A DNA stretch of 64,000 nt from a virus (IMGVR_UViG_3300032030_000073:4086-68085), one strand, 5' to 3'. Shown: positions 18,728 through 60,450, numbered from the stretch's first letter. Translations and numbers: made by a program. Notes: generated by a model from the letters alone, not told the origin.

Positions 18728-19216
18728 ATGCACGTCGTGATCGATAAGAGAGAGCAGCAGCCATGGGTATTTCCCGAAGGAGTGGAAGTCTCCGTCGGGA
18801 CTATACGCCAAGGCGACTACGCCCTCCGTGGAGACAATGCGTTTTCCATTGAGCGGAAGTCACTTGCCGACTTTCGCGGCACGGTCGTGCGTGGCTGGGA
18901 CCGTTTTCGGCGCGAACTTCTCCGCATGGATCTCGCGGGATTCGCGCAGAAGGTGATAATCGTGGAGGGCGATTTCGCCGACTACTGCTTCAAGGAACTG
19001 CCCGACGGCGAGGGCATCGAGGAGCCGTCCGCCGGAGCGGACGAGGTTTTTACGCCGTCGCTTGCCGCGCGCCGCGTAGCCGAGCTAACCATCTTCCACC
19101 GTGTTGCCGTCCTCTTCGCCCGTGACGAGGGCATCGCCGCCGCGCTTGCGTTCCAGATTCTCCTCCAGCGGCAGAACCAGCTCACGGGCATCGTCAAACT
19201 TCCGAAAGACCAATGA
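18728..19216 (+). CDS. ERCC4-domain nuclease
   Basis: IDKREQQP, GDY and IERKSLAD motifs. Confidence 0.9.
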   Translation: MHVVIDKREQQPWVFPEGVEVSVGTIRQGDYALRGDNAFSIERKSLADFRGTVVRGWDRFRRELLRMDLAGFAQKVIIVEGDFADYCFKELPDGEGIEEPSAGADEVFTPSLAARRVAELTIFHRVAVLFARDEGIAAALAFQILLQRQNQLTGIVKLPKDQ

Positions 19217-43500: not shown

Positions 43501-45450
43501 CGCAAGTTCCCCGAGCGGGGAGTTGATCTGCGTCATGGCGGTGAAGTCCTGGTACGCCCTGTTGATCGAGCGCAAAGCCTGTCCGGTTTCGGACGCCATG
43601 AACTTGTTGAACCTCTTCGTGCCGAACTCCCTCACCGCGCTCGGCGTCGCCTTGCCGAAAGCCCACCCCGTCGCCTTGCCCGCGCCGCGCAGAAGCCCCA
43701 TCGTGACCGATTCAAGCCCCACCTCCACGGCGGTGTCGAATATCGCGCCGCCGATTGCCTTGTACGCGGCTTCCTCCTCGTCGTCGGGGGCCGCGACCAT
43801 CTTGAACTCGCCGTTGTCGTCAAAACCGTACTCGGGCGTGACGTTCTCCTGGTAGCGGGACATGGCCTCCGTCGCGACAACAGGCACGGCGGAGCCGAGC
43901 ATGGTGGCCGCGCGCACGGCCTTTGCGCCCCAGTTGAGCGCCTGCGCGCCCTTGAACATCGCACCGCCGGGGAGCGCGAACTCCAGCGCGTAGCCGCCCG
44001 ACTCGATGCCGCCCTTCACGATCTTGTCGAGGATGCTCTGCTCCGTCGCGGACAGCTTTCCGCCCGCGTCGAGCTTCGCGATTGCGTCAAGGCGCAGCTC
44101 CTCTCCCGCGTCGTGCTGGATGCGGCCCATGAACTCCGCGTCGTTCTCGTCTGGACGCAGCGATTCAAGCGGGTTCCACGGCTCCAGTCCCGCCTTGCGC
44201 GCGGCGTCGCGGTATTTCTCCGCTTCCGTCTTGCCATCGTAGCCGTCCAGCTTGCCTTCGTAGATGTTGGAGAGGTGTCGCGTGCGCTCGCGCTGCTCGT
44301 TCGGGGCCGAGCGCCCCGCATACGGCATGAGCCTGTCGTACACGGCCTTCGCCGTGCCGAGCCAATCGTCGGTGTAGCGGCGCCTGTCGCCAGTCTCCGC
44401 GAGCGCGCCGAGCCGGACCTGCTCGAACGGCGAGCGCTCCACCTTGCCCTCGCCCTTGCCCATCATGCGGTCGAAGTCCTCGTCGCGGACGTGCAGCTTG
44501 CCCGCCACCATCGCGCCCTCGGACGAGACGCCTTCCGTCTCCTTGAACACGGGCTTGCCGTCGTCACCAACGCCGGTGAACTCCATCAGGCGCGCCGCCT
44601 GCCCGGCCTCGCCCGTGAACGGCCCGTCTCCCTCCTTGTGGTAGACGGCTATCGCGTCGCCGGGCTTGATGGCGTTGCCGTCGGCGTCCTCCAGCACGTC
44701 TCCAGTGAGGAACAGCTCGGGCGCGACCTGCGTGGTCTTGTTTTCCAGCTCCCGCTTGCCGTAGACCGGGCCTGCGATGGACTGCCCGAGCAGGACATTC
44801 TCGTACTTCTTGGTCGCCATCTGCGCGGCCTTGTCGCCAGACTCCTTGACTCGCGCCTCGCGTTTTCTGCGCGCGCGTTCGCCGCGCACGCCTGGGTCGT
44901 GGCGGATTTCGTCGCCCATGTCGTCCCAATGCGACTGGATGTATTCGTTCCAGCCTTTCTGGTAGGCTTTCTGGTGCTCGTCGTGGACGGCACGCGCCAT
45001 CTTGCGCGCCGAATCCTCGTCGTCGGCCTTGCCCCAATGCTCGCCCGTATCGGCGTAGTGCCTGACGGCATCTTCCTGTGACAGCTCCTTGCCGTCAACG
45101 ACCATGGGGATTACCGCAATCTTGCCGTCGCGGTCTTGCACGAGCATTGACTTGGTGGTTGAGTACCCGCTGACCTTGCCGTTCGCGCCGCGCCGGATGA
45201 GCGGCTTGCGCCCTTCCGTGCGCAGATTGCCGCCCCATTGGTTCGTCTGGCCATCAGGCATGGTGGCTGCGCCGCCGTCGCCAGACTCCCATGTGGGGAC
45301 GGGTTGTGCGTCCGCAGAAGCTGACGCCACGGAACCAGTTTCACCAGACGGCCCACCCTCGTCGTCCTCTATCTCGAAACCGCCAAACGCGGAAGAAGAG
45401 GACGGCTTCTTCTCGTCGTCCTCTATCTCGAAACCTCCAAAATCTGCCAT
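34534..45450 (-). CDS. Giant (3638 aa) polyvalent internal-virion/ejection protein: metallopeptidase-like HExxGH, ParB-like and ART-like domains
   Basis: LAHEATGHEG (about 42490), IVTGRHRLDAA (about 41610), IGTGEGSQVYGWGLY...GIDGVKY...NYVAF (38640-39560); last gene of the late operon after two other ejection-type genes. Confidence 0.85.
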   Translation of the reverse strand: MADFGGFEIEDDEKKPSSSSAFGGFEIEDDEGGPSGETGSVASASADAQPVPTWESGDGGAATMPDGQTNQWGGNLRTEGRKPLIRRGANGKVSGYSTTKSMLVQDRDGKIAVIPMVVDGKELSQEDAVRHYADTGEHWGKADDEDSARKMARAVHDEHQKAYQKGWNEYIQSHWDDMGDEIRHDPGVRGERARRKREARVKESGDKAAQMATKKYENVLLGQSIAGPVYGKRELENKTTQVAPELFLTGDVLEDADGNAIKPGDAIAVYHKEGDGPFTGEAGQAARLMEFTGVGDDGKPVFKETEGVSSEGAMVAGKLHVRDEDFDRMMGKGEGKVERSPFEQVRLGALAETGDRRRYTDDWLGTAKAVYDRLMPYAGRSAPNEQRERTRHLSNIYEGKLDGYDGKTEAEKYRDAARKAGLEPWNPLESLRPDENDAEFMGRIQHDAGEELRLDAIAKLDAGGKLSATEQSILDKIVKGGIESGGYALEFALPGGAMFKGAQALNWGAKAVRAATMLGSAVPVVATEAMSRYQENVTPEYGFDDNGEFKMVAAPDDEEEAAYKAIGGAIFDTAVEVGLESVTMGLLRGAGKATGWAFGKATPSAVREFGTKRFNKFMASETGQALRSINRAYQDFTAMTQINSPLGELAEENVQAFEKVIGLDGKSSEYKGLAQEWQDFKDNQLNWQTQWDIFYGLVAQLAIGAVKSTSEGVAQHISSADARRDIRMALKRSGISDETISTLTPEQQQKLTEMWQQYSADPDKLKEEVKNLGYSMRAAVDELTARDGLKMRQSLEQRGIAPERFTIQTGEDGKPVFQQMMRFTPDGKQAPMNAMTDAAHGVTIVDQGDGTFYVMNDFRGLDAVPAYSFEEAQKKADEEVVRNQSMDADNAQKAQYLTGLVQRQYAGRNVVSIPSEAALRWQVAQAINDGGNIYGITRADQLFKADGSLKQPGAGGFHTPDGHIVVILDNVPSPAEMERVLAHEATGHEGVESATGRGANTVEFIQNAQAEGFSKFVLAEQERAVQRFVAAGMDEDTARMQVAAAMSMDEYAREAMARYAQGRLHQPTWYEKRKHELNQRRRDAGENVPIDQSDLEVMLAEAEKQGAQGENELETLPGDSGVRYEEGVTDEARNGTDEAQPQPEQGEERGQEAPQPEAGAEPGAQAPDAGVVEPSKSDNGGQNLNTAERPAPADTIGGDAGRQPMSESSFWNVMHRKGERRRVPVDGIKIPDTQFKENADPKTGVVKGQELGEYYENAENPIAIYERKDGTMEIVTGRHRLDAAKRSGWKDIDARIFREADGYTPEDMRLYDAVANILDEKGTVKDYVRFFEESGFSEEDAKSSGILNRQKGRMAFGIVQNATDDTRGAIDWEGTGGDGLISAEQAAIIADAAPKQAALQRILVRRALDGVRGKKLAILARSLAEEAKNRKNAPKADSGTQLDLFTSEEDVALLQQEEKRADYRAKKANEYKRIAENLRTAMRKGGRLDLNKDYAKELGISDPKDKAQLAAARDKAVERANYWENAIRLDDADKAQMDADLGIAPQLSLESVTAEQITAEEKKRREKAEIKKRQEAPLKGSGAVNVQPEMDLGQTGQQDLFSPIAESEATAPAAKEKAAERPAEYLAWLEKYKMKDTDGRFAEWQRKQAARKPAKAALASAPRADGTTTPPKSADAPQVVKTTRDGESVRIVQNGREYEVELPDVKFPKTFTKATSKADWEAKMAEAKKIADELKKKAPFHSVINPKTGKYYANGSEIARQRQREVAAYEEAVRRATNQAFDEIGEYDDSWDEAPASAPQGGESAENAAPAAKPTATRPVSPVFTGEKPQKPAFKRGDRVFLKGAKDGQRVTFLKANADGTADVQVRTPGANRYAPEKVETRTVPMGDISATGMKDTLTGEERNAYRRGVAEQTREAMRSDPALQRIDAAYRAAKTDAERAELKAQFAERVRALQGGVDFDTPGIYTGTAADYANRSRQGGVDDGPSVKYIGTGEGSQVYGWGLYGSTERGVAEGYAHDDSLRKSGLAQDPGYDMPENGFPKWAIDSAREKLRKHGWNQTSRQKAIEEVSEAIDKHKSLAHDKFAEGLEVVKDILEKSTWHDAIIPKGYGTNNHLYEQTFFTNRAPGDESHLLKWYEPVEQELVNRIIDKAKEEGVIREDEYGRTDEDGKILLWADDGTGHYYQPVTLNGGYININVKTGEDLYKLTCQFFPRTSNRPKAASEFLARAGIDGVKYPVDSYGKTLKDGDKAGWNYVAFSDEHIRVDHKWTDGVLQFDTPELSADYSSVPERLDHSLWWISTHDEQMLNDIAALRKTAKRNIKAGADDTPSESEARDLKRRINEDNAKAREQKRLAEEDPLNVDYYKKRETYYREDAKELRDQLKELKRNGIGEDREEIDWYTNGDLLEILDSIESGEASISMHFDPYAIGPGEAGPFAEALKNLVESGNFKGEDLERLNRVAQKINDAYKAIERDIEDPRGPFGESLVSFDTPELTPAEAEYAASEDKTPTEKIMREVYGMTNDEIATALKAAGMEPPAHVRKTDADMWRQVETLLSNPTYMAKLSRAVAKFPRPTRDYENVALNVLFRQRQAAVNDLERRRAELAAIPEDDMNKTPELRDELRQVSAKLAQAKAQMAEAGKAAMMGASEQGRALRSNRALIAAHDYSYAGIAGRIAQTLGGIDKITPEMNARIRDLAKLFEGLDEEGLRLATERLIPLSKKVIDQTKNGLKVRKATERKVGDVARKVAQNYQDALTQIEVGAAETGGTLIGLSDQQYPSWGKWLRQIGEYHCFLNPEITEEEVIDAIVRDISPFMDGVDANQVRDALTGFGHNYKQSRYDAQRLMNSLRNISRSKRQIDWMDETNTMPPATGPIRDEPTQDEREWAKRVRDRKAEVPDAGRDERRLKSTLDTIKRNLENRIADLKRAIETGERIPVPKRKVVDDIRVRELRAEKDELQKQYDELFGTTREMTDAQRIALTEKLLAKELERAMEDFARAQSGDFSKRPQRPGVTSETIETLRDRIRQVRESIRELKNAKYAFGMTPEEIEALNARKMASREKALARLAERIATGDIRPQKKPQPPMTKDQQKRYDELGEQMKRGRQKLAELRLEAENATVPTFVRKGVNFLRFVTTAQRALRATMDFSAVLRQAARMTLGHPVKAARSFGKAWTAARSEASLLDVNTEILSDPTVQEAVKKFGLHLREVDAQSDRDVEMFHGMERNKVKIFGKEYAITDIPLFGEFMLKSERHYLTYLNAMSADLYTSIVNGIPGGATPWQKKMIADMINIWNGSAALSKERRQALQKAWVNDIFWAPQLAISRVQSAVGYDIWHPLVAKGIKNADGSFDKVSNDERKTAAKIGLREHLRSTVAMLAIGSLLKWLFSDDDDKYDFSQADWFEKMMMIASPKIGNTTIDLTGGESTFNRLVHQLATKSKRSSTGRVMKFGDFNGPTTMGAIGRYLQGKLSPSASTIVALWEGKDYVGEEYGVGNMVWEMLVPLTFDDVKDQIVQNGVGKSLVTVPLSILGAGGSTYDRKPYDNAVNRFLEEKRAYDAISKDAELTQSERKELLDGMKSESPLMADSVRGDIDARIKAVNRLERKAKDIEKKGGTPTASLTNEIERQKSILLDKIRRSRRK

Positions 45451-46956: not shown

Positions 46957-48549
46957 TTACTTGTTCATGTCTCGCCACATCTGGAGCTGCGCGTCAGTCT
47001 TCGCGTCGCCAGTCTCAAGAAGCTCTCCGCCGACGCCGTAGTGGCGTCCCGTGTTCGTGCTGACCGACGAGCCGCCGCGCGTCATCGCGCTGACGCGCGT
47101 CGACTCCGTGGAGTTCGTGATGTTCGCCTGCTGGAGCTTCGCGTTCGTGATCGAGTTGCCCGCGCTCTGCGTCGTGCCGGCGAGGTTGTTGTACGCGCTC
47201 GTGATCGCGTTGCCCGCGTTCTGCGTCGTGTTCGCGAGGCTCTGCTGCGCTCCGGCGATGTTCGACCCCGCCGTGTTCGTGACGCCGGCGAGCGTGCCGT
47301 ACGCGCTTGCGACGTTCGACCCCGCGGTGTTGTACAGCCCCGCGAGGACGTTGTACGCGGAGGCCAAGTCCTTGTTATGCCCAGTAACGAGGTTGGACGC
47401 GTTGCCGTAGATGTTCGCGACGGTGTTCCTGCCCGCCGCGACGTCGCCGAGCACGCCCGCCTTGTTGCCCTGAAGCGTTGCCGCCGTCCCCTGGAGCTGG
47501 CCGGAGCTCTGCAACACGCCGGCCGCCGCGTTCTGCGCATTGACCGCCGCTCCCTGCCCGGACGCGCCGATGGACGCGAGCTGTCCGCCAGTCTGGAGGA
47601 ACTTGTTAGCGTTGTTCGCGATGAGGTTCTGGAACGCCGTCGCCTTGTCGTTGATGCCGCGCTCCCTCGCGCGCGTCATGGCCGCCGCCTTCGCCACGGC
47701 GAGCCCCTGCTGGAACAGCTTCTGCAACTGCGCCTGCGCAGAGCCGCCGGACGGGTTCACGCCCTGCCGCGCGAGGTTGCGGTTCATCTGCCCCTGCGCG
47801 TTGTCCATGCTCTTCTGCACGTCCTGCGCGGCCGACGCGACGTACCTGTTCGGGTCGATCTGGCCGTAGACGCTCAACGCCTCCGCGACGAGCGGCGACG
47901 CGCCGGCGTCCATGTTGATGAAGCCGATGCCCGTGCCGAGCGTCGCGAGGGCCTGCTCCGTCACCTTCGTGCCGCTCTCCCACATCTGGTCGCCGTAGCC
48001 GCCGAGCTTGTCCGCGTACGGGAGCATCGCGGTCGCCGCGTCGCCCACGCCCCTGATATACGGGTCCATGCCGCGCGCGGCGTCCTCCGCGTCGTCGTAG
48101 CCCCTGTTCGCGGCCTCGGCCTGCGCGATCATGTTGTTGTAGGCGGAGTCCACGACGCCGCGCCCCGACAGTATCGCGTCGACGCCGCTCTGGCCGGACG
48201 AGATCGCGTTGTCGCCGTAGCTCGTCGCCGCGTCTACGCCGCTCTGCGCGGAGTCTATCGCGCGGTTGCCGTAGTCCTTCGCGTAGTCAACTGCGGCGCT
48301 CGACCTGTCTATCGCGTCGTCTCCGTATGTCTTCGCCGTGCCGACGCCGCTGTTCGACGCGTCGATCGCCGCGTCGCCGTAGGACTTCGCGGAGTCCACT
48401 GCGGACGCCGCCTGCGAGCGCGCCGTGGTAATCGCGTCGTCCAGCGCGTTGCTTGTCGCGCCGCTCGTGCTGGTCCTGCCGCTCGACAAGTCCGCAAGGC
48501 CGTCCACTTTCGCGTTGAACCGCGAATTCTCCAATATGCTTTGAGCCAT
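46957..48549 (-). CDS. Probable ejection protein 1 (Ala/Gly/Ser-rich)
   Basis: 530 aa from ATG 48549 (GGAGG RBS, ATGA coupling); AAQDVQKS...RNLARQGVNPSGG motif; 18-aa repeats. Confidence 0.72.
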   Translation of the reverse strand: MAQSILENSRFNAKVDGLADLSSGRTSTSGATSNALDDAITTARSQAASAVDSAKSYGDAAIDASNSGVGTAKTYGDDAIDRSSAAVDYAKDYGNRAIDSAQSGVDAATSYGDNAISSGQSGVDAILSGRGVVDSAYNNMIAQAEAANRGYDDAEDAARGMDPYIRGVGDAATAMLPYADKLGGYGDQMWESGTKVTEQALATLGTGIGFINMDAGASPLVAEALSVYGQIDPNRYVASAAQDVQKSMDNAQGQMNRNLARQGVNPSGGSAQAQLQKLFQQGLAVAKAAAMTRARERGINDKATAFQNLIANNANKFLQTGGQLASIGASGQGAAVNAQNAAAGVLQSSGQLQGTAATLQGNKAGVLGDVAAGRNTVANIYGNASNLVTGHNKDLASAYNVLAGLYNTAGSNVASAYGTLAGVTNTAGSNIAGAQQSLANTTQNAGNAITSAYNNLAGTTQSAGNSITNAKLQQANITNSTESTRVSAMTRGGSSVSTNTGRHYGVGGELLETGDAKTDAQLQMWRDMNK

Positions 48550-48722
48550 CACTGCCTCCTCTCTGTTGCCTTCAACCTCGCCTCCGCCGCCGCAAGCCGC
48601 CTTGCGAGCGCGCGGACGTTCTCGTTCAGCTTCATCACCGCGTCGCGCGCCTGCAAGTCCGCGATGTGGTGGAACGGTATTGAGCCGTGCGGCAGCGCCG
48701 CCATTGTCTTCTCGTTTGCCAT
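48549..48722 (-). CDS. Small coiled-coil virion-associated protein (57 aa)
   Basis: MANEKTMAALPHGSIPFHHIADLQARDAVMKLNENVRALARRL...; absent from the ORF track; coupled at both ends. Confidence 0.6.
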   Translation of the reverse strand: MANEKTMAALPHGSIPFHHIADLQARDAVMKLNENVRALARRLAAAEARLKATERRQ

Positions 48723-48725
48723 CAG

Positions 48726-51700
48726 TTAGCCTCCACGACGTTGGTCGCCACCACCACGGCGTCGATCTCGACGTCCGCGCGGACGGACACCTGCCAGAAC
48801 CGCTCCGGGCGCATCCTCGGGAGCCGCCGCGCGTCCTGCTGCGCGACCACAACGCCGTGCGTACGCCCAGCCGCCTCGTCGGGCGACGAGTACGTCCACA
48901 CGTCGGCGTCCACGGGATAGCCAGTCGCGTCCACGCGGACGGCAACGGGGTCGCCGGGGCGCGGCATCGTCATCACGCCGCTCTTCCACTCCATCGTCTT
49001 GTTGCTCTTCGCGCCCTCCCACGCGAAGACTGCGTTGTCGTCAAGGCGGAACCACGCCTCGAACACCTTGTCCGCGCGCACCTCGAACGTGTACTCCTCG
49101 GAAAGCGACACGAGGATGCCGCCGCTGTACCAGCCCGCGAAGACGTATCCGCCCGACGGATCGGGGATCGCCTTTATCGTGGTCGTCTGGTACACGCCTT
49201 GGTTGGGCGTGAAGCTCTTCTCGTGGACGTCGTGCCCCTGCTGGTCAGGAGGCTCGCCCTTGAACACGGCGCGTCCGCCAGCCGTCGCAAGGACGAGCGT
49301 CACCTTCGGAGACGAGAAGACACCCCAAGTAGACGTGACGAGAACGTTGCGCGAAATCGTGTACTCCATGTTCGGCACGACCGCGCCCTTAGTCGGGGAC
49401 ACCCCAAGCGGGAGCGGCTCGCTCTCGGACTCCTTCCGCTCCAGCGCATCCGCAGCGGAGGACTTCGTTGCGAACAGCCGAACGGTCGTGCCCTGCCTGA
49501 TTTTGTACCAACTCGCGCTGGAAACACCTTCCTTCACGTCGGACGGCACCGTTGACTCATCCACGGGCGCGAACACCCCCGTCTCGCCCCCCTCGTACGC
49601 AGCGGTGGTCGCGCCCACCGTGCCGCTCGCGCCACTCTCCGCAACGTCCACGCACGCAAGGTACACGTCGTCGGGGTTCGCGGAGAACGCAACGGCATAC
49701 GCGCCGTTCGCGCTCGGCGAGATCGTCGCACCAGCGCCGTATGGCGTCTGGCTTGCGCTCCCGCCAGTCGGCGTGAACGACATGCCCGTGAAGTGGTAGC
49801 CCTCGTCGGCGGTCGAGACGACGCGCATCGTCGCGCCGAGCGGAACCTGGAACGCACTGGTCGGCGCATCGACATTGCTCCCGAGGACGGACACCGCGAC
49901 CGAGCCGCCAGTCCCGCCCGTCACGGTCACGTCATGCGCGTAGTGCGCGTAGAGCGCGATGTCGCCCGACAGGGTGACTTGGTAGCTCGCGGAGGTCGAG
50001 ACCGGCGTTGCCGGCGCGTCCGCGCTCTCGCCCCATCCGTAGAACGACTGACCGGAAGTCTCCGTCCCAGCCGAGAACGTCACCACGTCGCCGACCTTGC
50101 GCGCCGTCTCGGCCGGCTCGATCCTGACGGTCTCTGCAACACTCGCCGACCCCGTGCCCTTGTAGACTGACGCGCTCACCACGTTACGGTCGTAGTACGC
50201 CGTGACCTCGATGTCGGCGCCGGGGACAACGAACTCCACCGTACCGTCCGCAGACGGCGAGATTGGCCCGCTCCAAGACGCTGAACGGAAGTTGGCGAGC
50301 GTGATTCCGTCCGCGCTCCCCGCGCTGACCGTGACGGACGCGCCCTCCATGACGTCCACGCTCGCGGTCGTGGCGGGTTCGCCGTCGTTGATCCTCACAA
50401 GCGGCGCGGACGCGACGGACGGTATCACGCCGTCGTTGTCGGTGCAAGCCGTGCTGACGGTGAGGTGAACCGTCTTGAGCCAATACGCGTAGAGAGTCGC
50501 GTTCCCTGCCGTTGTCCACTCGGAGTAGGCGTACCCGATTGGCGAGTAGACCCTCGTGCCGGTGCCGTTCGCGCCCGTGTAGTAGCCACGGAAGACGTAG
50601 CCCTCGCGGGTCGGGACTGCGACCGCGCCGGGCTTCTCGCCGTACTTCACGGTCGCGCTGCCAGACCCGCCGCTCCCGCCCGCGTCGTTGAGGGTCAGCG
50701 TGTAGGTGTTCGCAGACCACCTCGCGTAGACCGTCATCGCCGTCGCGGTCGAGGACGGAAGCCCCTTGAATGACGTGTTTGTGCCGCTTGTCGCGTATGA
50801 GCCGTTCCAGTACGTCCCGTCCACAGCAAGGGCGTTCGCGTCGTAGACCATCTCGCCGCCCGACGCCGCGTCGTAGTAGCCGAGGAAGGTGTGCCCCGTG
50901 CGCGTCGGGGCCGCGAGGACTGCGCCGTTGTAAGTGCCGACTGCAAGCGCCTTGTCGGGGTAGGTGTAGATCTGTCCGGTCGAGCCACGGAACGTGAGGG
51001 ACGCGCCGAAGTCTATGCGGATGTTGTAAGTCTTACCCGTCCAGTACGCGTAGAGCGTCGTCGCGCTCGTCTTATCCCAGTTCCGCGCGCTCGCGCCGCC
51101 AGACATGTAGTACCTCGTGCCGCCGCCGCTCGCCGCCGTGTAGTAGCCGTTGAACGTGAAGCCAGTGCGCGACGGCACGGCGATCGTCGGCATCGCGGCG
51201 TCGTATGTCGCCGTGACGGAGGACGTGCCGCCCGTGCCGCCCTGCCTGTCCAGCGTCACCGCGTAGGTGTTCGGCGTCCAGTACGCGTAGAGCGTCCTCG
51301 CCTCCGCGATGTTCCACGCCCTTGCGCTCGTGCCGTTGGAGTTGTAGAACTGCACGCCCTGCGAGGGAACCTTCGTCGTGTAGTAGCCCTTGAACGTGTA
51401 GCCCGTGCGGGTTGGCAGGGTGATCGCTGGCATCGCGGAGCCGTAGGTCGCGGTCACGGATGACGAGCCGCCAGTCCCGCCATTGTTGTCGAGGTTGACG
51501 GTGTACGAGTTGCCAGTCCACTTCGCGTACAGGGTCATCGCAGACGCGATGTCCCATACCTTCGCGCTTGCGCCGCCAGCAGTGTAGTATTGCGTCCCGC
51601 CGCCGTTCTGCCCCGTGTAGAAGCCGCCGAACGTGTAGCCGGTGCGCGTCGGCATCGTCGCGTACGGCATTGACGAGCCGTATGTCGCCGTGACGCTACC

Positions 51701-52168
51701 AGTGCCGTTAGAGCCGCCAGCCGCATTGAGGGTCACGGTGTAGGAGTTCGCCGTCCACTGCCCGTACACGGTGATGTCGCTCGTTACGTTGGTGAATGCG
51801 CCGCTCCATCCAGTGAACGTGTACCCCGTCCTTGACGCAGTGGGCGCGGTCGCGCTGTTTCCGTAGAGGACGGTTTGCGACTTCAGCAAATCCCCGCCGT
51901 TGTAGCGGTAGAAGTTGACGGTGAACTGCGCGGTGTAGATTTTGGCGTCAATAGAATAATCGTCAGTTATTTGCGCCGTGTAATCGCCCGTGATTGAGAC
52001 GACAGAACTTGTCGCTCCGTAAATCTTATTGGTGCACGTTATCGTGATCGGCAAAGGGTAGTTTGTGAATGTAACCTCTTGCACGCCGCTGTATATCGTC
52101 TGCCCGTTCTTGTTCTTGACGCTGAATGTTCCCGGGCCCGAAAGACTTACTTTCCCTGTATATCCCAT
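48726..52168 (-). CDS. Ig-like repeat stalk (about 6 Listeria-Bacteroides/InlB-B repeats plus about 5 divergent repeats) fused to the nozzle C-terminal fragment
   Basis: Repeats of YTVTL..GG..G...V.ATYG...PTRTGYTF.GYY...TLYA.W; the last roughly 95 aa are AWEG...MEWKSG...ATGYPV...RLPRMRPERFWQVSV. Confidence 0.82.
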
Positions 52169-52169
52169 C

Positions 52170-53594
52170 CTACACCTCCTCCGTCAAGTCCCGCACGAAG
52201 TACATCGTGTCCGTCACGTTGTCCACGCACGCGCACTGCGCCGCCTCGTCGTGCGTCGTCACCGCGTCCGCGCTCTCGTTCAAGTCAAGCACCAGCCCCT
52301 CGTCTGGCGACCCGTCAGCGCGCCTGAAGAACATGTGCAAGGCACCGTCGTGCTGCTGGAGGATGCACGAGGACGGGTTCTTCGCCTGCCACTGGTCCTT
52401 CGTGAATATCTTCTCCGTAACGTTCACGCACACCGTGCCCGAGTTCGCGTCGTTCACAATGGCCATCAGCCCCTCGTTCGACGCGTAGTACACCGAGTTG
52501 CGGTACACGCACACGCCGCGCGGGGAGACGCACGCGGCAGGCCCCGCGAGCTTCGCGGCGGTCATGCTCTCGGGCGCCGTGCCCGAAAGCACCCACGGCC
52601 AGCCGTCCGTCAGCGCAAACACCGTGTTGCTCGTCACGGCGAGCGCGACGATCGTGTCCTTGACGTCGTAGCGGTACGCGACGGGCCAGCTCGTCACGAG
52701 ATTGATGTCGCTGAACATGACCGTCTTGGGCGCGCTTGCGGAGAAGCCCGTGTAGAACCCGCCGGGGACGAACTGGAGACAGCGGAGGTCTGACGGGATC
52801 GGCTCGATCCCCGGCTCCGTCTCGCCCGTGTCCTCTGGGTAGACGGCGTGGCTGGTCTGCCCCTGGTCGAGGTCTGACACCTTGCAGTCGAACAGGAACT
52901 GGATGCCGTCGTTGGAGTCCTCCGTGCCGCTCATCGTCATGTAGACCCTAACTCCGTCCGCGTCTGGCGGGATGCCGTCGAACGCGAACTCCACCACCGA
53001 GCCCGTGTTTATCTCGATTATCTCGGTCGATCCGGTCAGCCCGCTCTCGTACCCGAACTCGTCGTACCACGACGCGAAGAAAGCGACGTAGAACACCGTC
53101 TTGGCGTCGTCGAACGCGGGATCGCCAGTGTCGGCGGCGGAGAACGTGGTGATGGGCGACTTGACGAGCGTGTGGCGGATGACGTTGTTTCCGCTCCGCT
53201 CGTGGATGAACACGGCCGGCGTGTTCTCCGTCACGGTCGTGCCGTCATCGTAGGACACGCCCGTGTCGCCCGTGATGAAGACGCGGTCGTACTCGTCGTC
53301 CGCGATGTTGCCCTCAGCCATCCACGTCATGCCCTTGAACGCGAGGAACGAGACGACCGTCCTGCCCGTGTTGTCGAGCCACTTCCACGCGTGGAGGCTC
53401 GTCGCGTCTGAGAGCTTCGTCAGCCCGCCCTCCTTGTAGACGCGGCTGTTCGACACTACTGACGGGTTGCGGAGCGGCACGAGCTTCCCGCTCTTGAGGC
53501 GGCAGTTGTGCGCGCGCACCGCCATCCCCGCGCTGAGAAGCGAGGGGTGGAGCCTTGGCTGCATGCCGTGGAAGTTGTCTATCTTCAACGTCAT
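52170..53594 (-). CDS. Tail nozzle / stabilisation protein (tail tubular protein B-like), lacking its C-terminal part
   Basis: IDNFHGMQPRLHP.LL...A.N..L.SGKLVP start; beta-propeller-like MFSD...SWPVAY, GPAACVS, YYASNEGL. Confidence 0.75.
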   Translation of the reverse strand: MTLKIDNFHGMQPRLHPSLLSAGMAVRAHNCRLKSGKLVPLRNPSVVSNSRVYKEGGLTKLSDATSLHAWKWLDNTGRTVVSFLAFKGMTWMAEGNIADDEYDRVFITGDTGVSYDDGTTVTENTPAVFIHERSGNNVIRHTLVKSPITTFSAADTGDPAFDDAKTVFYVAFFASWYDEFGYESGLTGSTEIIEINTGSVVEFAFDGIPPDADGVRVYMTMSGTEDSNDGIQFLFDCKVSDLDQGQTSHAVYPEDTGETEPGIEPIPSDLRCLQFVPGGFYTGFSASAPKTVMFSDINLVTSWPVAYRYDVKDTIVALAVTSNTVFALTDGWPWVLSGTAPESMTAAKLAGPAACVSPRGVCVYRNSVYYASNEGLMAIVNDANSGTVCVNVTEKIFTKDQWQAKNPSSCILQQHDGALHMFFRRADGSPDEGLVLDLNESADAVTTHDEAAQCACVDNVTDTMYFVRDLTEEV

Positions 53595-57182: not shown

Positions 57183-57919
57183 GTCAGGTTGAACCTCGCT
57201 TTGTCGATTGCGTAGTTGGCGGCAACTTCATCCGTAGTCAAACATTTGTTGTATATCCGCATACACCCGAATGACATCTGCGCCCCGACGTAATTCGTTC
57301 CTAGTATGGACACATTCGCGTCAGTCCGCGCACCTGTGTAATTCCAGGTGGCTGTAACCTCGACACCGTTGTAGTATATTTCGGCAGAGTTCCATGCAAG
57401 CGGACGACATGACGTTGCCGCCATGCGTGAAAGCATATCGCCCGGCCCCTGCTTCGAGATTGAATACAGTCTCCCAGAATAAAAAGTTCCAGCAACAGTA
57501 CCTTGCTGATAATTGTTGGACACTCGGATTCCGTTTCTGTATGCGTAGGCAATGGCTGCATTCGCCCACGCCCCGGTGTTAGGCAGAGACGCGACGCATT
57601 CCGTAGTGATTGCGTCCCCTGCTTCTGGCAACGGAGACACGTCGGTCGCAATGCCGCCGTACTCATAAGATTCAATCGTGCTTCCAGTAGCGCCCGATTG
57701 CGACGTGTAGGAAACGGAATTTGCCCCAATTATTGCCGATTCAGACAAGACGATTGGCGCACCTCCGCAAAGATTGACAAGTCTAGGCCTGCCGTCATGC
57801 ACGCCCGGCCCGGCGTTCCACTCCGCGTCCCACATGGCTATGAGGCCGTCGGTGACGTATGGATTCTGCCACCCGCCTCCGCCTCGCTTCTCGAAGAACT
57901 GTCTCGCGCCGAGGAGCAT
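57179..57919 (-). CDS. ConA/LamG-like lectin-fold protein, candidate receptor-binding protein
   Basis: 246 aa from ATG 57919; NPYVTDGLIAMWDAEWNAG...MRIYNKCLTTDEVAANYAIDKARF. Confidence 0.7.
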   Translation of the reverse strand: MLLGARQFFEKRGGGGWQNPYVTDGLIAMWDAEWNAGPGVHDGRPRLVNLCGGAPIVLSESAIIGANSVSYTSQSGATGSTIESYEYGGIATDVSPLPEAGDAITTECVASLPNTGAWANAAIAYAYRNGIRVSNNYQQGTVAGTFYSGRLYSISKQGPGDMLSRMAATSCRPLAWNSAEIYYNGVEVTATWNYTGARTDANVSILGTNYVGAQMSFGCMRIYNKCLTTDEVAANYAIDKARFNLT

Positions 57920-60450
57920 CACGCACCTCCCTGCGCTACTTCGTTGACCTTCTTCAGCGACACCGCGAACGTGTGCGCGACACAACTCTCCGTGAACGAG
58001 TACACCCAATTCCCAACCTCATCGGGCACGGGAAAATCGTCGCCGTCCGTCTCGTAGGTGATTGTCTCGCCCGTGGGCGCGGCGAACGTGATGGTCGGCA
58101 CCGCGGAGCCGCTAATCTCCAGCCGCACGAGGAAGTCGCGGAGGTAGCCGGGGACGGCGGCGGGTAGCGTGAGCGTCGTGTCGCCCGTCACCTCCACGCG
58201 GTTGCCAGAGCGATCGAGGAGGTGGCCGGGGAGAGAGGCGCGCGTCGCGGTGAAACTATCGCCACCGTGTGAAAAAGTGATTTCCAACGTCGCAAGCGCC
58301 AGAGCTTCCGTCTCGTAATTCTGCGAATAGTATGTAACACCATTGTAAGACGATTGATAAATCCAACCAATAGACTCGTCATCTGGACCATAAAGTTCTC
58401 TAGGCCCAGTTATTTCATGGCTTAAACCGTCGCTGAACTCCCACTTGCCCGGCTCCACCAGACGGTAGGGGAGGTCGGTCGCGTTCGCCTTCTGCGCAAG
58501 CGCGGCGTCCCTTGCCGAAAGGGCGACGTACAGGCACTTCGCTGACGGGTACTGCGCGTCCGTCGACTGACCCGTGACGGACGTGACCTTGTTCTCAAGA
58601 CGCTCAAGCAAGTACCTGCACTCGCGGGAGACGTACTCGGAGCCGGTCATCATGAAAGAATACCACCCGCTTTTCGCACGAAGCGTGAACGCATGCCCCT
58701 CAAACTCGAAAGACGCGGAGAAGCTCCCCGTGAACGGGTCGCTGTGATCAAATGATCCGACGGGGCCGTTGCTGTACACAACAGACGCGACACCCCCGGA
58801 ATGCGCCTCCACGCCGATGTAATACTCGGCGTTCCCGCCGGACGCAAGGGCGATTCGCATGGAAAACCCCTCGACGACCGCGAACTCCCCGTCGCCGACA
58901 ACTGAATACTGAGCGGGAAGGAGCAGCGCCGCGCCGCTCCCGTTAATGGAGAATTCGATGTCCGCGACGAGTCCGATGTCCTGCTGGGGCACGCCGTCCA
59001 GCGACCACTCGACCGTCTTGAGGACGTAGACGTTCCCGCCGGCGTCGGAGGCGAAATTGTCAAAGACGAAACGGCCATCACCCAGCGAAGACACGTTCGG
59101 GATCATGAAATCCGCCCCTCCGGCCAACGTCGAAGTCGAGGAGGCCTTCGACCTGAGCGCACCGCCAACCGCCTTCGCGTCCGCCGCCGCGCCCTGCACC
59201 GCGAGGGTAGCGTCCACGGCAACGAGCCCCTTGCCAGCCTCCTTCTGCACGAAACGCCCGTCAGCCGCCGTCTTGTCGTAGTAGTTCGCCGGGTTGAAGA
59301 TGTCCGTCAGCGGAATCTCGATGTCCTCCACGCCAGCGTCCGTGTTGAACGAAATCACCAAATTCCCGCCAGTAATCTCCACTGAATCTACCATGCCGTC
59401 CTTGATGAACGCGGTCGCATCGATACTCGCAACAACGGTAGAATCATGCTTCAGCTGGATTTCCTTCGCGGTAGAATCGTACCCTGCGGCGTTCACGTAT
59501 GCGTCAAGGCTCTGATGCGCCTGCACCGCCGTATCGGCCTTGCCGAGGCTGTCCTTCACGGCTTGCGCGAGGTCGCTCTTCGGTATGCCGCCCTGCGGCT
59601 TGTCGTATTTCGCTGTCCACGCCGTCTTCTGCGTCGCCGTGACGTGAATGCCAGCGTTGCCGGTATGCTCCGTCACGGCGTCCGAGACTTCCTTCACCGC
59701 GCCGTACACGCCTCCGCTCTTCACGGGGTTATCGCTTTCCTCCGTCGGAATGTCGTCGAACGTCAGCATGTTCTGCTTCGTCGCGCCCATCGCGGCGATT
59801 GCCGTGTTCATCTCATCGCGCGACACCTCGCCGTCGTAGACAGTTACCTCCTTGGGCGTTTCAAGCGTGCCGTCGTTCAGCGTGATCTTGGCGCCACCGT
59901 CTACGCGCTCCGCGTCCAGCGCGAGATTGTCCATCCTCGACGTCCACGCCGCCACCTGCTCCGCCCACTCGTCTATCCGCTTCGGCCACTTGTCCAAATC
60001 GTACGGCACCGTGTCGCCGATGCGCTCCGGCCAATACTCCACCTCGTAGCGGTCGCGGAAGTAGAGCGTCCTCGGGTCGTCCGTGTCGCCCAGTACAAAC
60101 ATCACGGGCACGCGAAGCATGTGCCGCGCGGCGTCCACCATGCGCGTGGTGTTGAGATTCAGTTCGCAGTAGAGGTCGTTCGAGTCATCCGTCGCGGGAG
60201 CCCACGCGTCAGCCGACGTGACATCATCCGGCCAATCCTCGCTGTTGTCCTCCGTCCAGTACGGGAACACCGCCAGCGTCCGCCCCGTCACGAGGTCCAG
60301 CACGCGGAGCGAGAGGTTCGCGCCCGCGTCGTCGCCAAGCCATTCCGCGCCGCCCTTTATCGTGACGGCGACGTGCTCGCCGGCCGCGACGGCTCCCTTG
60401 AACCGCGCGGTCTTGTCCGCAACCTTCGGCGTTATCGTCAGTTCCGTCAT
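57919..60450 (-). CDS. Tail fibre / spike protein
   Basis: 843 aa; fibre-shaft motifs DDIPTEESDNPVKSGGVY, GIPKSDLA..V..SLGKAD.A.Q, DATLAVQGAAADAKAVG, TDAQYPSAK. Confidence 0.78.
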   Translation of the reverse strand: MTELTITPKVADKTARFKGAVAAGEHVAVTIKGGAEWLGDDAGANLSLRVLDLVTGRTLAVFPYWTEDNSEDWPDDVTSADAWAPATDDSNDLYCELNLNTTRMVDAARHMLRVPVMFVLGDTDDPRTLYFRDRYEVEYWPERIGDTVPYDLDKWPKRIDEWAEQVAAWTSRMDNLALDAERVDGGAKITLNDGTLETPKEVTVYDGEVSRDEMNTAIAAMGATKQNMLTFDDIPTEESDNPVKSGGVYGAVKEVSDAVTEHTGNAGIHVTATQKTAWTAKYDKPQGGIPKSDLAQAVKDSLGKADTAVQAHQSLDAYVNAAGYDSTAKEIQLKHDSTVVASIDATAFIKDGMVDSVEITGGNLVISFNTDAGVEDIEIPLTDIFNPANYYDKTAADGRFVQKEAGKGLVAVDATLAVQGAAADAKAVGGALRSKASSTSTLAGGADFMIPNVSSLGDGRFVFDNFASDAGGNVYVLKTVEWSLDGVPQQDIGLVADIEFSINGSGAALLLPAQYSVVGDGEFAVVEGFSMRIALASGGNAEYYIGVEAHSGGVASVVYSNGPVGSFDHSDPFTGSFSASFEFEGHAFTLRAKSGWYSFMMTGSEYVSRECRYLLERLENKVTSVTGQSTDAQYPSAKCLYVALSARDAALAQKANATDLPYRLVEPGKWEFSDGLSHEITGPRELYGPDDESIGWIYQSSYNGVTYYSQNYETEALALATLEITFSHGGDSFTATRASLPGHLLDRSGNRVEVTGDTTLTLPAAVPGYLRDFLVRLEISGSAVPTITFAAPTGETITYETDGDDFPVPDEVGNWVYSFTESCVAHTFAVSLKKVNEVAQGGA

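What the first reader, a model, noticed from the sequence alone, without database searches (positions are those of the whole stretch)
48726..53594. Tail nozzle gene split by insertion of an ~11-domain Ig-like adhesin stalk
Seen: the 474-aa ORF has the nozzle N-terminus and stops at DNVTDTMYFVRDLTEEV. One nt later a new GGAGGAGG-led ORF starts with about 1050 aa of Listeria-Bacteroides-type repeats and ends with about 95 aa (AWEG...WKSG...GYPV...RLP...WQVSV...VVATN) matching the pattern that normally finishes this nozzle family. Inference: the nozzle is assembled from two chains, the second anchoring a long surface-protein-derived stalk at the tail tip, for example for mucus, S-layer or glycan adhesion. 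A +1 frameshift fusion is the alternative.
Basis: partly seen in the sequence, partly recalled or inferred. Interest (0 to 1): 0.78.

Follow-up and report, generated by a model that had tools for sequence, protein, structure and literature searches.

The report
Two-gene phage tail nozzle with built-in stalk
A ruminant-gut phage, like hundreds of uncultured relatives, encodes its tail nozzle as two proteins: the second carries a long chain of surface-protein-type repeat domains and ends in the missing last piece of the nozzle, a design solved so far in only one cultured phage.

Summary
On the minus strand, a 474-aa ORF (52170-53594) is homologous to residues 3-420 of the 577-aa hexameric nozzle of Ralstonia phage GP4 (PDB 8jov). 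It stops at MYFVRDLTEEV. One base later, behind GGAGGAGG, a 1148-aa ORF (48722-52168) starts. This second ORF has an N-terminal cap, six canonical Listeria-Bacteroides (InlB B-repeat) domains and about five divergent beta domains. Its last ~107 aa match the nozzle C-terminus.

The split is not an error or a frameshift. Every one of 11 distinct relatives whose downstream gene could be read has it, and the 120 best homologues of the first ORF all keep the short length. The frame relation between the two genes varies (0, +1, -1), and each junction has its own ribosome-binding site. Contigs from three other studies show the same junction.

One intact 561-aa relative places the break in a beta-hairpin turn. 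A complex prediction puts the two strands of that hairpin back together (0.88 against 0.00 for controls).

The split nozzle of Pseudomonas phage A1002 (PLoS Biol, Nov 2026) has the same logic but different cargo. The repeats have a beta-grasp fold, not an Ig-like one. The stalks probably leave the adaptor-side rim of the nozzle, not the tip. I rate it a new variant of a known kind.

The parts
52170..53594 (-). Nozzle base (P0001, 474 aa). It holds the N-terminal platform strands, the beta-propeller and the tip, equivalent to GP4 nozzle residues 3-420. It lacks the last ~110-155 aa found in one-chain nozzles.
   Evidence: phrog_511 columns 321-754, E 3e-64. 8jov_A E 1.4e-21 for the single sequence and 1.3e-38 for a profile of 36 homologues. 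AF2 model pLDDT 88, with best Foldseek hit 8jov_A 'Portal-tail complex of phage GP4' at E 5e-19, followed by the nozzles of SU10, A4, Carin-1, LME-1, VP1, Pa223, P22 and Sf6.
52166..52182 (-). Gene junction: GGAGGAGG (52182-52175) lies inside the last codons of P0001, followed by TAG (52172-52170), one base, and the ATG of P0002 (52168-52166). The P0002 frame carries a TGA 15 nt upstream of its ATG.
   Evidence: Sequence read directly. The same architecture, with a purine-rich ribosome-binding site inside the last codons, is present in 11 relatives, with spacers from -4 to +18 nt and all three frame relations. Contigs from three other studies bridge the junction without an indel there.
48722..52168 (-). 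Stalk plus nozzle C-piece protein (P0002, 1148 aa).
   Evidence: Translation. Flg_new E 8e-46 and Flg_new_2 E 2e-5. AF2 model is all-beta, mean pLDDT 81.
51926..52168 (-). N-terminal cap domain (residues 1-81), predicted to be the distal end of the stalk. It is a local divergence hot spot among near-identical strains.
   Evidence: Beta strands 3-76 in the model. In contigs from three other ruminant-gut studies that are ~97% identical on both sides, positions 51945-52159 (215 nt) are replaced by 218 letters that do not align (table 5). No template-like repeat of this stretch occurs elsewhere in the window.
50471..51925 (-). Six canonical Listeria-Bacteroides / InlB B-repeat (Flg_new) domains, residues 82-566. 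Each is about 79 aa, except one of 108 aa with a low-confidence insert.
   Evidence: Pfam PF09479 E 8e-46. A self-built repeat HMM finds six units with E from 1e-17 to 9e-39. Identity is 40-59% to repeats of cellular surface proteins, including ones named for Verrucomicrobiae and Kiritimatiellae MAGs.
49049..50470 (-). About five divergent all-beta domains (residues 567-1040). They include one Pfam-detected Flg_new_2 (602-662) and a last Flg_new_2-like domain that abuts the C-piece in all relatives.
   Evidence: Pfam. Weak matches to the repeat HMM. Strand pattern of the model. Relatives carry Flg_new_2 at the matching position.
48725..49048 (-). Nozzle C-piece (residues ~1041-1148): the last propeller strand plus the C-terminal platform strands. 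It corresponds to GP4 nozzle residues 424-463 and 534-574.
   Evidence: phrog_511 columns 751-856, E 2e-6. The profile hits 8jov_A at E 3.2e-5. The piece sits at the extreme C-terminus in all 150 listed representatives (459 reach E<=1e-3). It is contiguous with the N-part in the intact 561-aa relative P0276. Predicted to bind P0001 residues 1-62 and 463-468, score 0.88 against 0.00.

Best explanation
The window is most of a complete 68-kb podophage genome with terminal repeats, from the ruminant gut. Its virion module is of the GP4/phi24B type.

The nozzle gene has undergone fission at the turn of a beta-hairpin. In one-chain nozzles this hairpin reads like MFFIKD-DN-IVAWEDG. The first gene makes a 474-aa nozzle base that ends with the first strand (MYFVRD). 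The second gene is translated from its own start, coupled to the stop of the first through a ribosome-binding site inside the last codons. It makes a 1148-aa chain whose last ~107 aa begin with the second strand (VFAWEG) and supply the missing C-terminal propeller and platform strands.

The two chains reassemble by beta-strand complementation into one nozzle protomer. The hexameric nozzle would therefore carry six stalks, each continuous in one polypeptide chain with part of the nozzle fold. Each stalk has about 11 beta domains: six InlB-type B-repeats with a beta-grasp fold, about five divergent relatives, and an N-terminal cap at the free end.

What is shown: the homology of both pieces, the position of the break, its conservation, and independent translation starts.

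What is predicted: the trans-complementation interface.

What is inferred: six copies per virion; exit from the adaptor-side rim of the nozzle; and a role as a built-in fibre that reaches for and binds host-surface structures, with the cap as the likely specificity element. The host is probably a Gram-negative bacterium of the Lentisphaerae / Kiritimatiellae / Verrucomicrobia group.
For: 1. Both halves map collinearly onto one family. phrog_511 columns 321-754 match P0001 and columns 751-856 match the P0002 C-terminus. On the GP4 nozzle 8jov_A, the matches are residues 3-420 and 424-574.

2. One-chain homologues are 543-583 aa: 933W p62 567 aa, Itty13 gp09 583 aa, P0276 561 aa, and Halomonas prophages 543-544 aa. 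phi24B gp57 and the GP4 protein are the hexameric nozzles in cryo-EM maps (bioRxiv 10.64898/2026.04.10.717836).

3. P0276 joins the two halves with only about 2 residues between the strands.

4. The split is conserved. All 120 best homologues of P0001, down to 44% identity, have the short form. In each of the 11 distinct relatives where the downstream gene could be read, the next gene is a long ORF. The five translated in full are Flg_new proteins of 826-1410 aa ending in the C-piece. An exhaustive profile search finds the C-piece in 459 clusters at 50% identity. It is always at the extreme C-terminus, in proteins of 91-2200 aa (median 941). Only one of the 150 listed proteins also holds the N-part.

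5. The frame relation varies: +1 with a 1- or 4-nt spacer, in frame with a 3- or 18-nt spacer, and -1 with a 1- or 4-nt overlap (ATGA in L004). A GGAGG-like site is always present. The next two gene junctions in the window are TGATG overlaps, so tight coupling is the operon's norm.

6. Complex prediction: score 0.88 in three runs, best of three controls 0.00. This mark was reached by 58 of 80 solved complexes and 2 of 110 mismatched pairs. Contact agreement is at least 92% and partner pLDDT at least 86. P0001 residues 464-466 pair with C-piece residues 9-11, and P0001 residues 27-30 with C-piece residues 20-23. Because one-chain nozzles are solved, this pass may come from likeness to them. It shows that the halves fit the known fold, not that they bind.

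7. In the model of P0002 alone, residues 1044-1057, the strand that pairs with P0001, are the only low-confidence stretch of the C-piece.

8. Precedent: the A1002 nozzle-base gp42 and nozzle-rope gp39 are solved by cryo-EM. The C-terminal propeller-C and platform-C domains of gp39 complete gp42 (PMC13730344).

9. Contigs from three other studies (~97% identical) carry the same junction.
Against: - There is no virion proteomics or structure for this phage or any member of its clade, and all members are uncultured.
- The complex score may reflect memory of one-chain nozzle structures.
- Low-level frameshifting or readthrough in this particular phage cannot be excluded from sequence alone.
- The adhesin or receptor-binding role of the stalk is inference. 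InlB-type B-repeats can be mere spacers.
- In A1002 the corresponding chain is a scaffold for other fibre proteins, not itself a binder.
- The host assignment rests only on co-binning with MAGs and on similarity of the repeats to proteins of those phyla.
Confidence: 0.82

Rival explanations
1. Programmed +1 frameshift (or stop bypass) fuses the two ORFs into one ~1620-aa nozzle with an internal stalk insertion. Under this reading the apparent split is only a recoding site.
For: - The ORFs are 1 nt apart, and P0002 is in the +1 frame.
- A Shine-Dalgarno-like GGAGGAGG lies just upstream of the stop, reminiscent of the stimulator in the prfB +1 frameshift. This comparison is from my own knowledge.
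- The +1 arrangement with a 1-nt spacer is the commonest among relatives: the window and 5 of 11 distinct relatives.
Against: - Relatives have in-frame arrangements with a stop and a 3- or 18-nt spacer (L014, L003), and -1 overlaps of 4 nt (ATGA, L004) or 1 nt (TGATG, L019). One recoding mechanism cannot serve them all.
- The P0002 frame is closed by a TGA 15 nt upstream of the ATG, so a shift would have to occur within 5 codons that contain no slippery or rare-codon motif.
- Every relative keeps an ATG with a ribosome-binding site at proper spacing.
- The downstream junctions in the same operon are ordinary TGATG couplings.
- A solved phage makes its nozzle from two chains (PMC13730344).
Confidence: 0.04
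2. The split architecture is as described, but the stalk is not itself the binder. It is a scaffold, as in A1002 (whose gp39 rope docks 11 fibre dimers), on which other small phage proteins assemble, or a passive spacer.
For: - In A1002 the chain that carries the nozzle C-piece is a docking rope for gp40/gp41 dimers.
- GP4 and VP1 also have chain-like fibres built on rope proteins (PMC13730344).
- Several small ORFs of 112-164 aa, of unknown function, lie just upstream.
- B-repeats were first seen as spacers (bioRxiv 10.1101/2024.12.31.630911).
Against: - The stalk here is a chain of folded, autonomous domains (Pfam; model pLDDT mostly 80-95), not an extended rope.
- The stalk length and domain content vary freely among relatives, from 826 to 1410 aa and up to 2200 aa. 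A scaffold with fixed partners would not tolerate this easily.
- The distal cap is a divergence hot spot between ~97%-identical strains, as expected for a specificity element.
- No homologue of the fibre-dimer proteins was looked for.
Confidence: 0.12
3. Assembly or sequencing artefact, or a recently broken pseudogene: the nozzle is really one gene, and this copy is defective.
For: A 1-nt offset is what a single-base indel error would give.
Against: - The short form is present in all 120 best homologues, down to 44% identity, from many assemblies.
- The break is at the same hairpin in each of 11 distinct relatives where the junction could be read.
- The junction is reproduced in contigs from three other studies.
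- Even without the stop, about 1040 aa of foreign domains would lie between the halves.
Confidence: 0.01

Closest known systems
Split nozzle of Pseudomonas aeruginosa podophage A1002: nozzle-base gp42 plus nozzle-rope gp39 (cryo-EM; PLoS Biol 2026, PMC13730344)
   Same: - The nozzle is made of two chains.
- The base chain holds platform-N, most of the beta-propeller and the tip.
- The second chain ends with the propeller-C and platform-C strands, which complete the base by strand addition.
- The second chain's N-terminal part is a long appendage running away from the nozzle, six per virion.
   Different: - In A1002 the appendage is an extended ~300-A rope plus one Ig-like domain that docks 11 dimers of two small fibre proteins. 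Here it is about 11 folded beta-grasp-type repeat domains with a cap.
- The A1002 genes are separated by the fibre genes (gp39 ... gp42, rope first). Here the base gene comes first and the two genes are 1 nt apart and translationally coupled.
- The base here is homologous to the GP4/phi24B nozzle. No sequence link to gp42 or gp39 could be tested, because their sequences and PDB entries were not available to the tools.
- Here the design is shown to be shared by hundreds of sequence clusters.
One-chain nozzles of the GP4 / phi24B / 933W group (PDB 8jov chain A, 577 aa; phi24B gp57; 933W p62; Itty13 gp09; phrog_511)
   Same: - Sequence homology over both halves.
- The same fold.
- The same neighbourhood: small adaptor-like genes upstream; needle or ejection-type genes and a giant polyvalent protein downstream (phi24B preprint).
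   Different: - Those are single polypeptides of 543-583 aa with the hairpin intact.
- Their fibres are separate proteins that dock non-covalently.
- GP4 has about 70 extra residues (463-534) inside the region that corresponds to the C-piece.
Bacterial surface proteins with Listeria-Bacteroides repeats (Pfam PF09479 Flg_new, PF18998 Flg_new_2, TIGR02543; prototype InlB B-repeat)
   Same: Six repeats score as canonical family members and are 40-59% identical to repeats of cellular proteins. As in 'periscope' surface proteins, the tandem array would project a terminal domain away from its anchor.
   Different: The anchor is a piece of a virion protein, not a cell-wall or membrane anchor. There is no signal peptide context.

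Membership tests
GP4/phi24B-type podophage nozzle (phrog_511; PDB 8jov_A) | Significant sequence similarity to family members over the N-terminal platform, propeller and tip | tested here: met
   P0001: phrog_511 E 3e-64. 8jov_A E 1.4e-21 for the single sequence and 1.3e-38 for the profile. 263 phage records by tblastn.
GP4/phi24B-type podophage nozzle (phrog_511; PDB 8jov_A) | Beta-propeller nozzle fold | tested here: met
   AF2 model pLDDT 88. Foldseek best hit 8jov_A E 5e-19 (TM 0.62), followed by other podophage nozzles.
GP4/phi24B-type podophage nozzle (phrog_511; PDB 8jov_A) | C-terminal propeller and platform strands present in the same polypeptide | tested here: not met
   P0001 stops at the equivalent of 8jov residue ~420 of 577. 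The missing part is at the C-terminus of the next ORF.
GP4/phi24B-type podophage nozzle (phrog_511; PDB 8jov_A) | [quoted passage not shown] | not testable with these tools
   Needs virions. Inferred from the GP4 and phi24B maps (bioRxiv 10.64898/2026.04.10.717836).
A1002-type split (two-chain) nozzle | Base chain lacks the C-terminal propeller and platform strands, and a second chain carries them at its C-terminus | tested here: met
   Domain description of gp42 and gp39 in PMC13730344.
A1002-type split (two-chain) nozzle | The two chains reconstitute one nozzle protomer by beta-strand complementation | tested here: inconclusive
   Prediction only: score 0.88 against best control 0.00; the mark was reached by 58 of 80 solved complexes and 2 of 110 mismatched pairs; contact agreement at least 92%; partner pLDDT at least 86. 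The pass may come from likeness to solved one-chain nozzles.
A1002-type split (two-chain) nozzle | N-terminal part of the second chain is an extended rope that docks dimers of small fibre proteins | tested here: not met
   The N-terminal 1040 aa are folded repeat domains (Pfam; model). Homologues of the fibre-dimer proteins were not searched for.
A1002-type split (two-chain) nozzle | Sequence homology to gp42 and gp39 | not testable with these tools
PDB sequence searches with P0001, A3 and the C-piece returned only 8jov.
Listeria-Bacteroides repeat / InlB B-repeat (PF09479, PF18998) | Score above the Pfam gathering threshold, in tandem copies | tested here: met
   PF09479: 154 bits against a cut-off of 27, in 5 stretches. 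PF18998: 24.9 against 23.6. Six units by the self-built HMM.
   No Ig-family Pfam hit. The repeats belong to the B-repeat family, whose solved fold is beta-grasp (bioRxiv 10.1101/2024.12.31.630911, citing Ebbes 2011). The fold of the divergent domains was not resolved domain by domain; the whole-chain Foldseek search was uninformative.
Programmed +1 ribosomal frameshift site | Conserved frame relation and a shift-prone codon context across relatives | tested here: not met
   Frame relations of 0, +1 and -1, and spacers from -4 to +18 nt, in 12 loci.
Diversity-generating retroelement target (considered for the variable cap) | A template repeat similar to the variable region elsewhere in the genome | tested here: not met
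   blastn of 51900-52200 against the window finds only itself. The first 4 kb of the genome, outside the window, were not searched.

The most novel reading that the evidence does not exclude
The hairpin break acts as a conserved plug-in socket. Across a large, wholly uncultured clade of ruminant-gut and other gut podophages, probably infecting Lentisphaerae, Kiritimatiellae or Verrucomicrobia, the receptor-binding appendage is not docked onto the tail. Instead it is held by donating structural strands to the nozzle fold. Stalk genes of any length (about 700 to 2200 aa) can then be exchanged behind a fixed ~107-aa anchor. On this reading the design arose independently of the A1002 split nozzle, and six monomeric B-repeat stalks with variable caps are the primary host-recognition device.
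Probability: 0.45. Interest if true: 0.72.

Novelty: new variant of a known kind. Interest (0 to 1): 0.6.

Why it matters
In textbook podophages the nozzle is a single-protein hexamer, and fibres dock onto it non-covalently. A two-chain nozzle has been solved in one phage only (A1002, November 2026).

This finding shows that the same solution exists in a different nozzle lineage (GP4/phi24B type), with a different cargo: bacterial-surface-type B-repeats. It is the rule in hundreds of sequence clusters of uncultured gut phages. Gene fission with trans-complementation therefore looks like a recurrent way to build a fibre into the tail hub.

The finding also gives:
- a residue-level break point;
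- an intact comparator (P0276);
- a simple sequence signature, the ~107-aa C-piece at a protein's extreme C-terminus, for finding the receptor-binding candidate in such metagenomic phages.

The signature may help with host-range prediction for phages of poorly cultured PVC bacteria in the rumen.

Tried and rejected
1. tblastn of the 132-aa C-terminal stretch against 50,697 isolate phage records found nothing at E<=0.01. The one-chain C-termini are too diverged for a single short query; profiles were needed.

2. A search for longer, fused forms of P0001 found only two 1492-aa proteins (P0128, P0129) at 28-29% identity. Their hairpin is intact (LYVVEDGELREWS) and their large insertions lie elsewhere, so they are not fused versions of this split. 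hhalign of the C-piece profile against P0129 gave nothing.

3. I briefly thought the cap (residues 1-81) was only 27% identical between P0002 and its near-twin P0132. That was a register artefact from a 1-residue indel. The true identity is 88%.

4. A DGR as the source of cap variation: no template repeat in the window.

5. Whole-chain Foldseek of the 1148-aa model gave only generic beads-on-a-string matches (pilins, adhesin stalks, complement receptors) with TM below 0.1.

6. Pfam and PHROGs gave nothing for most neighbouring structural ORFs or for the 3638-aa ORF.

7. No tRNA genes in the window. No earlier notes on this genome.

8. RNA-library contigs (X20) that are 100% identical to parts of both genes were seen. 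Contigs from a metatranscriptome cannot show transcription, so this is not used as evidence.

9. A tree of 36 split and 5 intact N-parts is compatible with a single origin of the split: the intact forms need one change, with support 73/78. The intact sequences sit on very long branches, so this is only weak support.

Full report
**1. What is in the sequence**

On the minus strand, ORF P0001 (52170-53594, 474 aa) ends ...DNVTDTMYFVRDLTEEV with TAG at 52172-52170. After one base, ORF P0002 (48722-52168, 1148 aa) starts with ATG at 52168-52166. GGAGGAGG (52182-52175) lies inside the last codons of P0001, about 6 nt before the ATG. In the P0002 frame a TGA lies 15 nt upstream of the ATG.

The window is bases 4086-68085 of a 68,085-bp virus record with direct terminal repeats, rated 100% complete.

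**2. P0001 is a nozzle protein without its C-terminus**

- P0001 matches phrog_511 columns 321-754 of 862 (E 3e-64).
- It matches PDB 8jov chain A (577 aa, six copies) over residues 3-419 (E 1.4e-21). A profile of 36 homologues reaches E 1.3e-38 and also ends at residue 420.
- 8jov is the portal-tail complex of Ralstonia phage GP4. The AF2 model of P0001 (pLDDT 88) has 8jov_A as its best Foldseek hit (E 5e-19). The next hits are the nozzles of SU10, A4, Carin-1, LME-1, VP1, Pa223, P22 and Sf6.
- Homologues in isolate phages are single ORFs: 933W p62, 567 aa, and Itty13 gp09, 583 aa.
- The phi24B preprint identifies that phage's gp57 as the hexameric nozzle, homologous to the GP4 nozzle, with a needle held in its lumen.

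P0001 is therefore a genuine nozzle protein that lacks roughly the last 110-155 residues.

**3. The missing end is at the C-terminus of P0002**

- The last 132 aa of P0002 match phrog_511 columns 751-856 (E 2e-6). This is exactly where P0001 leaves off.
- Alone, this stretch hits 8jov_A only weakly: residues 419-461 and 536-570, E 0.048.
- A profile of four such C-termini gives E 3.2e-5 over residues 424-463 and 534-574.
- The same profile aligns to the C-termini of Itty13 gp09 and 933W p62.

**4. The rest of P0002**

- Pfam finds Flg_new (Listeria-Bacteroides repeat, E 8e-46) and one Flg_new_2.
- An HMM built from the protein's own repeats delimits six canonical units at residues 82-566.
- The AF2 model (48-row alignment, mean pLDDT 81) is all-beta throughout. 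It has an 81-aa N-terminal cap, the six repeats, about five further beta domains to residue ~1040, and then the C-piece.
- The B-repeat family has a beta-grasp fold, not an Ig fold.
- The canonical repeats are 40-59% identical to repeats of cellular surface proteins. Several of these are named for Verrucomicrobiae and Kiritimatiellae MAGs.

**5. The split is old and conserved**

- The 120 best homologues of P0001, down to 44% identity, are all 455-551 aa and cover 95-100% of it in all but three.
- In five diverged contigs (N-part 45-64% identical), the next gene is a Flg_new/Flg_new_2 protein of 826-1410 aa. Each ends with the same ~107-aa module: WEG...NK..W.S...P.P..R.D..GY...S.P...ARR.P..R.ER.
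- An exhaustive profile search of 1.84 billion representatives finds this module in 459 clusters (225 at E<=1e-10). In all 150 listed proteins it is at the extreme C-terminus. Their lengths run from 91 to 2200 aa, median 941.
- Only one listed protein, P0276 (561 aa), also contains the N-part (E 7e-61 to P0001). It is an intact one-chain nozzle.
- Its sequence KMFFIKDDNIVAWEDG equals the end of P0001 (TMYFVRD) followed by the start of the C-piece (DNAVFAWEG). The break, and the ~1040-aa stalk, therefore sit in the turn of one beta-hairpin. GP4 (LYFLVGKEIFEWDA) and Itty13 (LYYIIGPDVYEWDA) show the same uninterrupted hairpin.
- A tree of 36 split and 5 intact N-parts is compatible with one origin of the split, with long-branch caveats.

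**6. Two chains, not a frameshift**

Across 12 distinct loci the junction takes several forms:
- stop, 1 nt, ATG (window, L005, L006, L008, L012, L018);
- stop, 4 nt, ATG (L016);
- in frame, with a stop and a spacer of 3 nt (L014) or 18 nt (L003);
- a 4-nt ATGA overlap (L004) or a 1-nt TGATG overlap (L019).

Every locus keeps a GGAGG-like site in the last codons of the N-part. No single recoding event could serve all of these, whereas independent, coupled initiation serves them all. The next two junctions in the window (P0002 to a 57-aa ORF, and that ORF to a 530-aa ORF) are TGATG overlaps.

Contigs from three other ruminant-gut studies, ~97% identical, bridge the junction without an indel.

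**7. Do the halves fit?**

- A complex prediction of P0001 with the 109-aa C-piece scored 0.88 in each of three runs. The best of three controls scored 0.00. This mark was reached by 58 of 80 solved complexes and 2 of 110 mismatched pairs. The runs agree in at least 92% of contacts, and the partner's pLDDT is at least 86.
- The interface joins C-piece residues 5-31 and 85-108 to P0001 residues 1-62 and 463-468. M464-F466 pair with F9-W11 of the C-piece, which are the two strands of the broken hairpin.
- Because one-chain nozzles of this family are solved, the pass may reflect that likeness. It shows that the halves fit the known fold, not that they bind.
- In the model of P0002 alone, residues 1044-1057 are the only low-confidence stretch of the C-piece.

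**8. Comparison with what is known**

PLoS Biol 2026 (PMC13730344) solved Pseudomonas phage A1002. Its nozzle-base gp42 (398 aa) has truncated platform and propeller domains. [quoted passage not shown] The N-terminal part of gp39 is a ~300-A rope that docks 11 dimers of two small fibre proteins.

The logic here is the same, but several things differ: the nozzle lineage (GP4/phi24B type), the gene order and coupling, and the cargo (folded B-repeat domains). In A1002 the adaptor binds the rope protein's platform side. By analogy, the stalks here should leave the adaptor-side rim of the nozzle. That is also where phi24B's lateral fibres attach, and it is not the tip. This point is inference.

No other paper in the searchable library describes a split nozzle, or a nozzle with B-repeats.

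**9. Ecology and function**

- The stretch is held at 99% of sampled words by a sheep-gut run that may be its source. Rumen, bovine-gut and goat-gut runs from more than ten studies hold 26-40%.
- Relatives sit in MAG bins of Lentisphaerae, Kiritimatiellae and Verrucomicrobiota, often as contigs of 57-68 kb that look like whole phage genomes. Probable hosts are therefore Gram-negative PVC bacteria, but this is not proven.
- In contigs from three other studies, the 215 nt that encode cap residues ~4-75 are replaced by 218 unalignable letters, while both flanks stay ~97% identical. A loop around residues 868-883 is also replaced in two of them. No DGR-type template repeat is present.
- A conserved anchor, a stalk of freely varying length and a fast-changing distal cap form the usual pattern of a receptor-binding appendage. 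Binding itself is untested.

**10. Verdict**

The two-chain reading is well supported and the frameshift reading is rejected. 'Ig-like' and 'tail tip' should be corrected. The finding is a new variant of a design known from a single solved phage, and it is widespread among uncultured gut phages.

An unchecked first-reader note on another genome (e1-5871555) describes the same kind of split.

Noticed in passing
window 48549-48722 (-): A 57-aa ORF, predicted helical or coiled-coil. Its start overlaps the P0002 stop (TGATG) and its stop overlaps the next start (TGATG). An ORF of 55-64 aa sits at the same place in all five relatives examined.
   Followed up: partly
window 46957-48549 (-): A 530-aa ORF rich in Gly, Ala, Ser and Asn, with degenerate internal repeats (for example ...YGD.AID.S.SGV...). 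It has no Pfam or PHROG hit. It occupies the position where phi24B has its needle, and relatives have ORFs of 367-661 aa there. It is a candidate needle or ejection protein.
   Followed up: no
window 34534-45450 (-): A giant 3638-aa ORF at the position of the large polyvalent or ejection proteins of relatives (2410-5754 aa, with LPD38, ART-PolyVal and helicase domains) and of phi24B gp47. Here it has no Pfam hit at all, only a weak ParB-like PHROG match at residues 1261-1296.
   Followed up: partly
window 51945-52159 and 49520-49565: In contigs from other ruminant-gut studies that are ~97% identical elsewhere, these two stretches are replaced: the cap (215 nt, three studies) by 218 letters, and a loop around residues 868-883 (46 nt, two studies) by 73 letters. 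These are local swap or divergence hot spots.
   Followed up: partly
P0128 / P0129 (1492 aa, ENA metagenome contigs): Distant one-chain nozzle relatives (28-29% identity over the propeller). They have about 640 aa inserted after the N-terminal platform strands and about 500 aa inserted after the intact hairpin. This shows that other loops of this fold also accept very large insertions without gene fission.
   Followed up: partly
window 57919-60450 (-): An 843-aa ORF with a short match to a tail-protein PHROG (phrog_27373, E 2e-8). Relatives have ORFs with CBM_5_12 and Laminin_G_3 in this region. The phage probably has further fibre-like proteins besides the stalk.
   Followed up: no
window 19213-23897 (+): Replication genes on the opposite strand: a RecD2-like SF1 helicase (694 aa) and a Toprim-domain protein (942 aa).
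   Followed up: no
L017 / L020 (contig ONRL01000002.1, 67,605 bp, Lentisphaerae MAG bin): The nozzle-base gene is cut by the two ends of the contig. The contig is therefore a circularly permuted whole phage genome that was binned with the MAG, not an integrated prophage.
   Followed up: no
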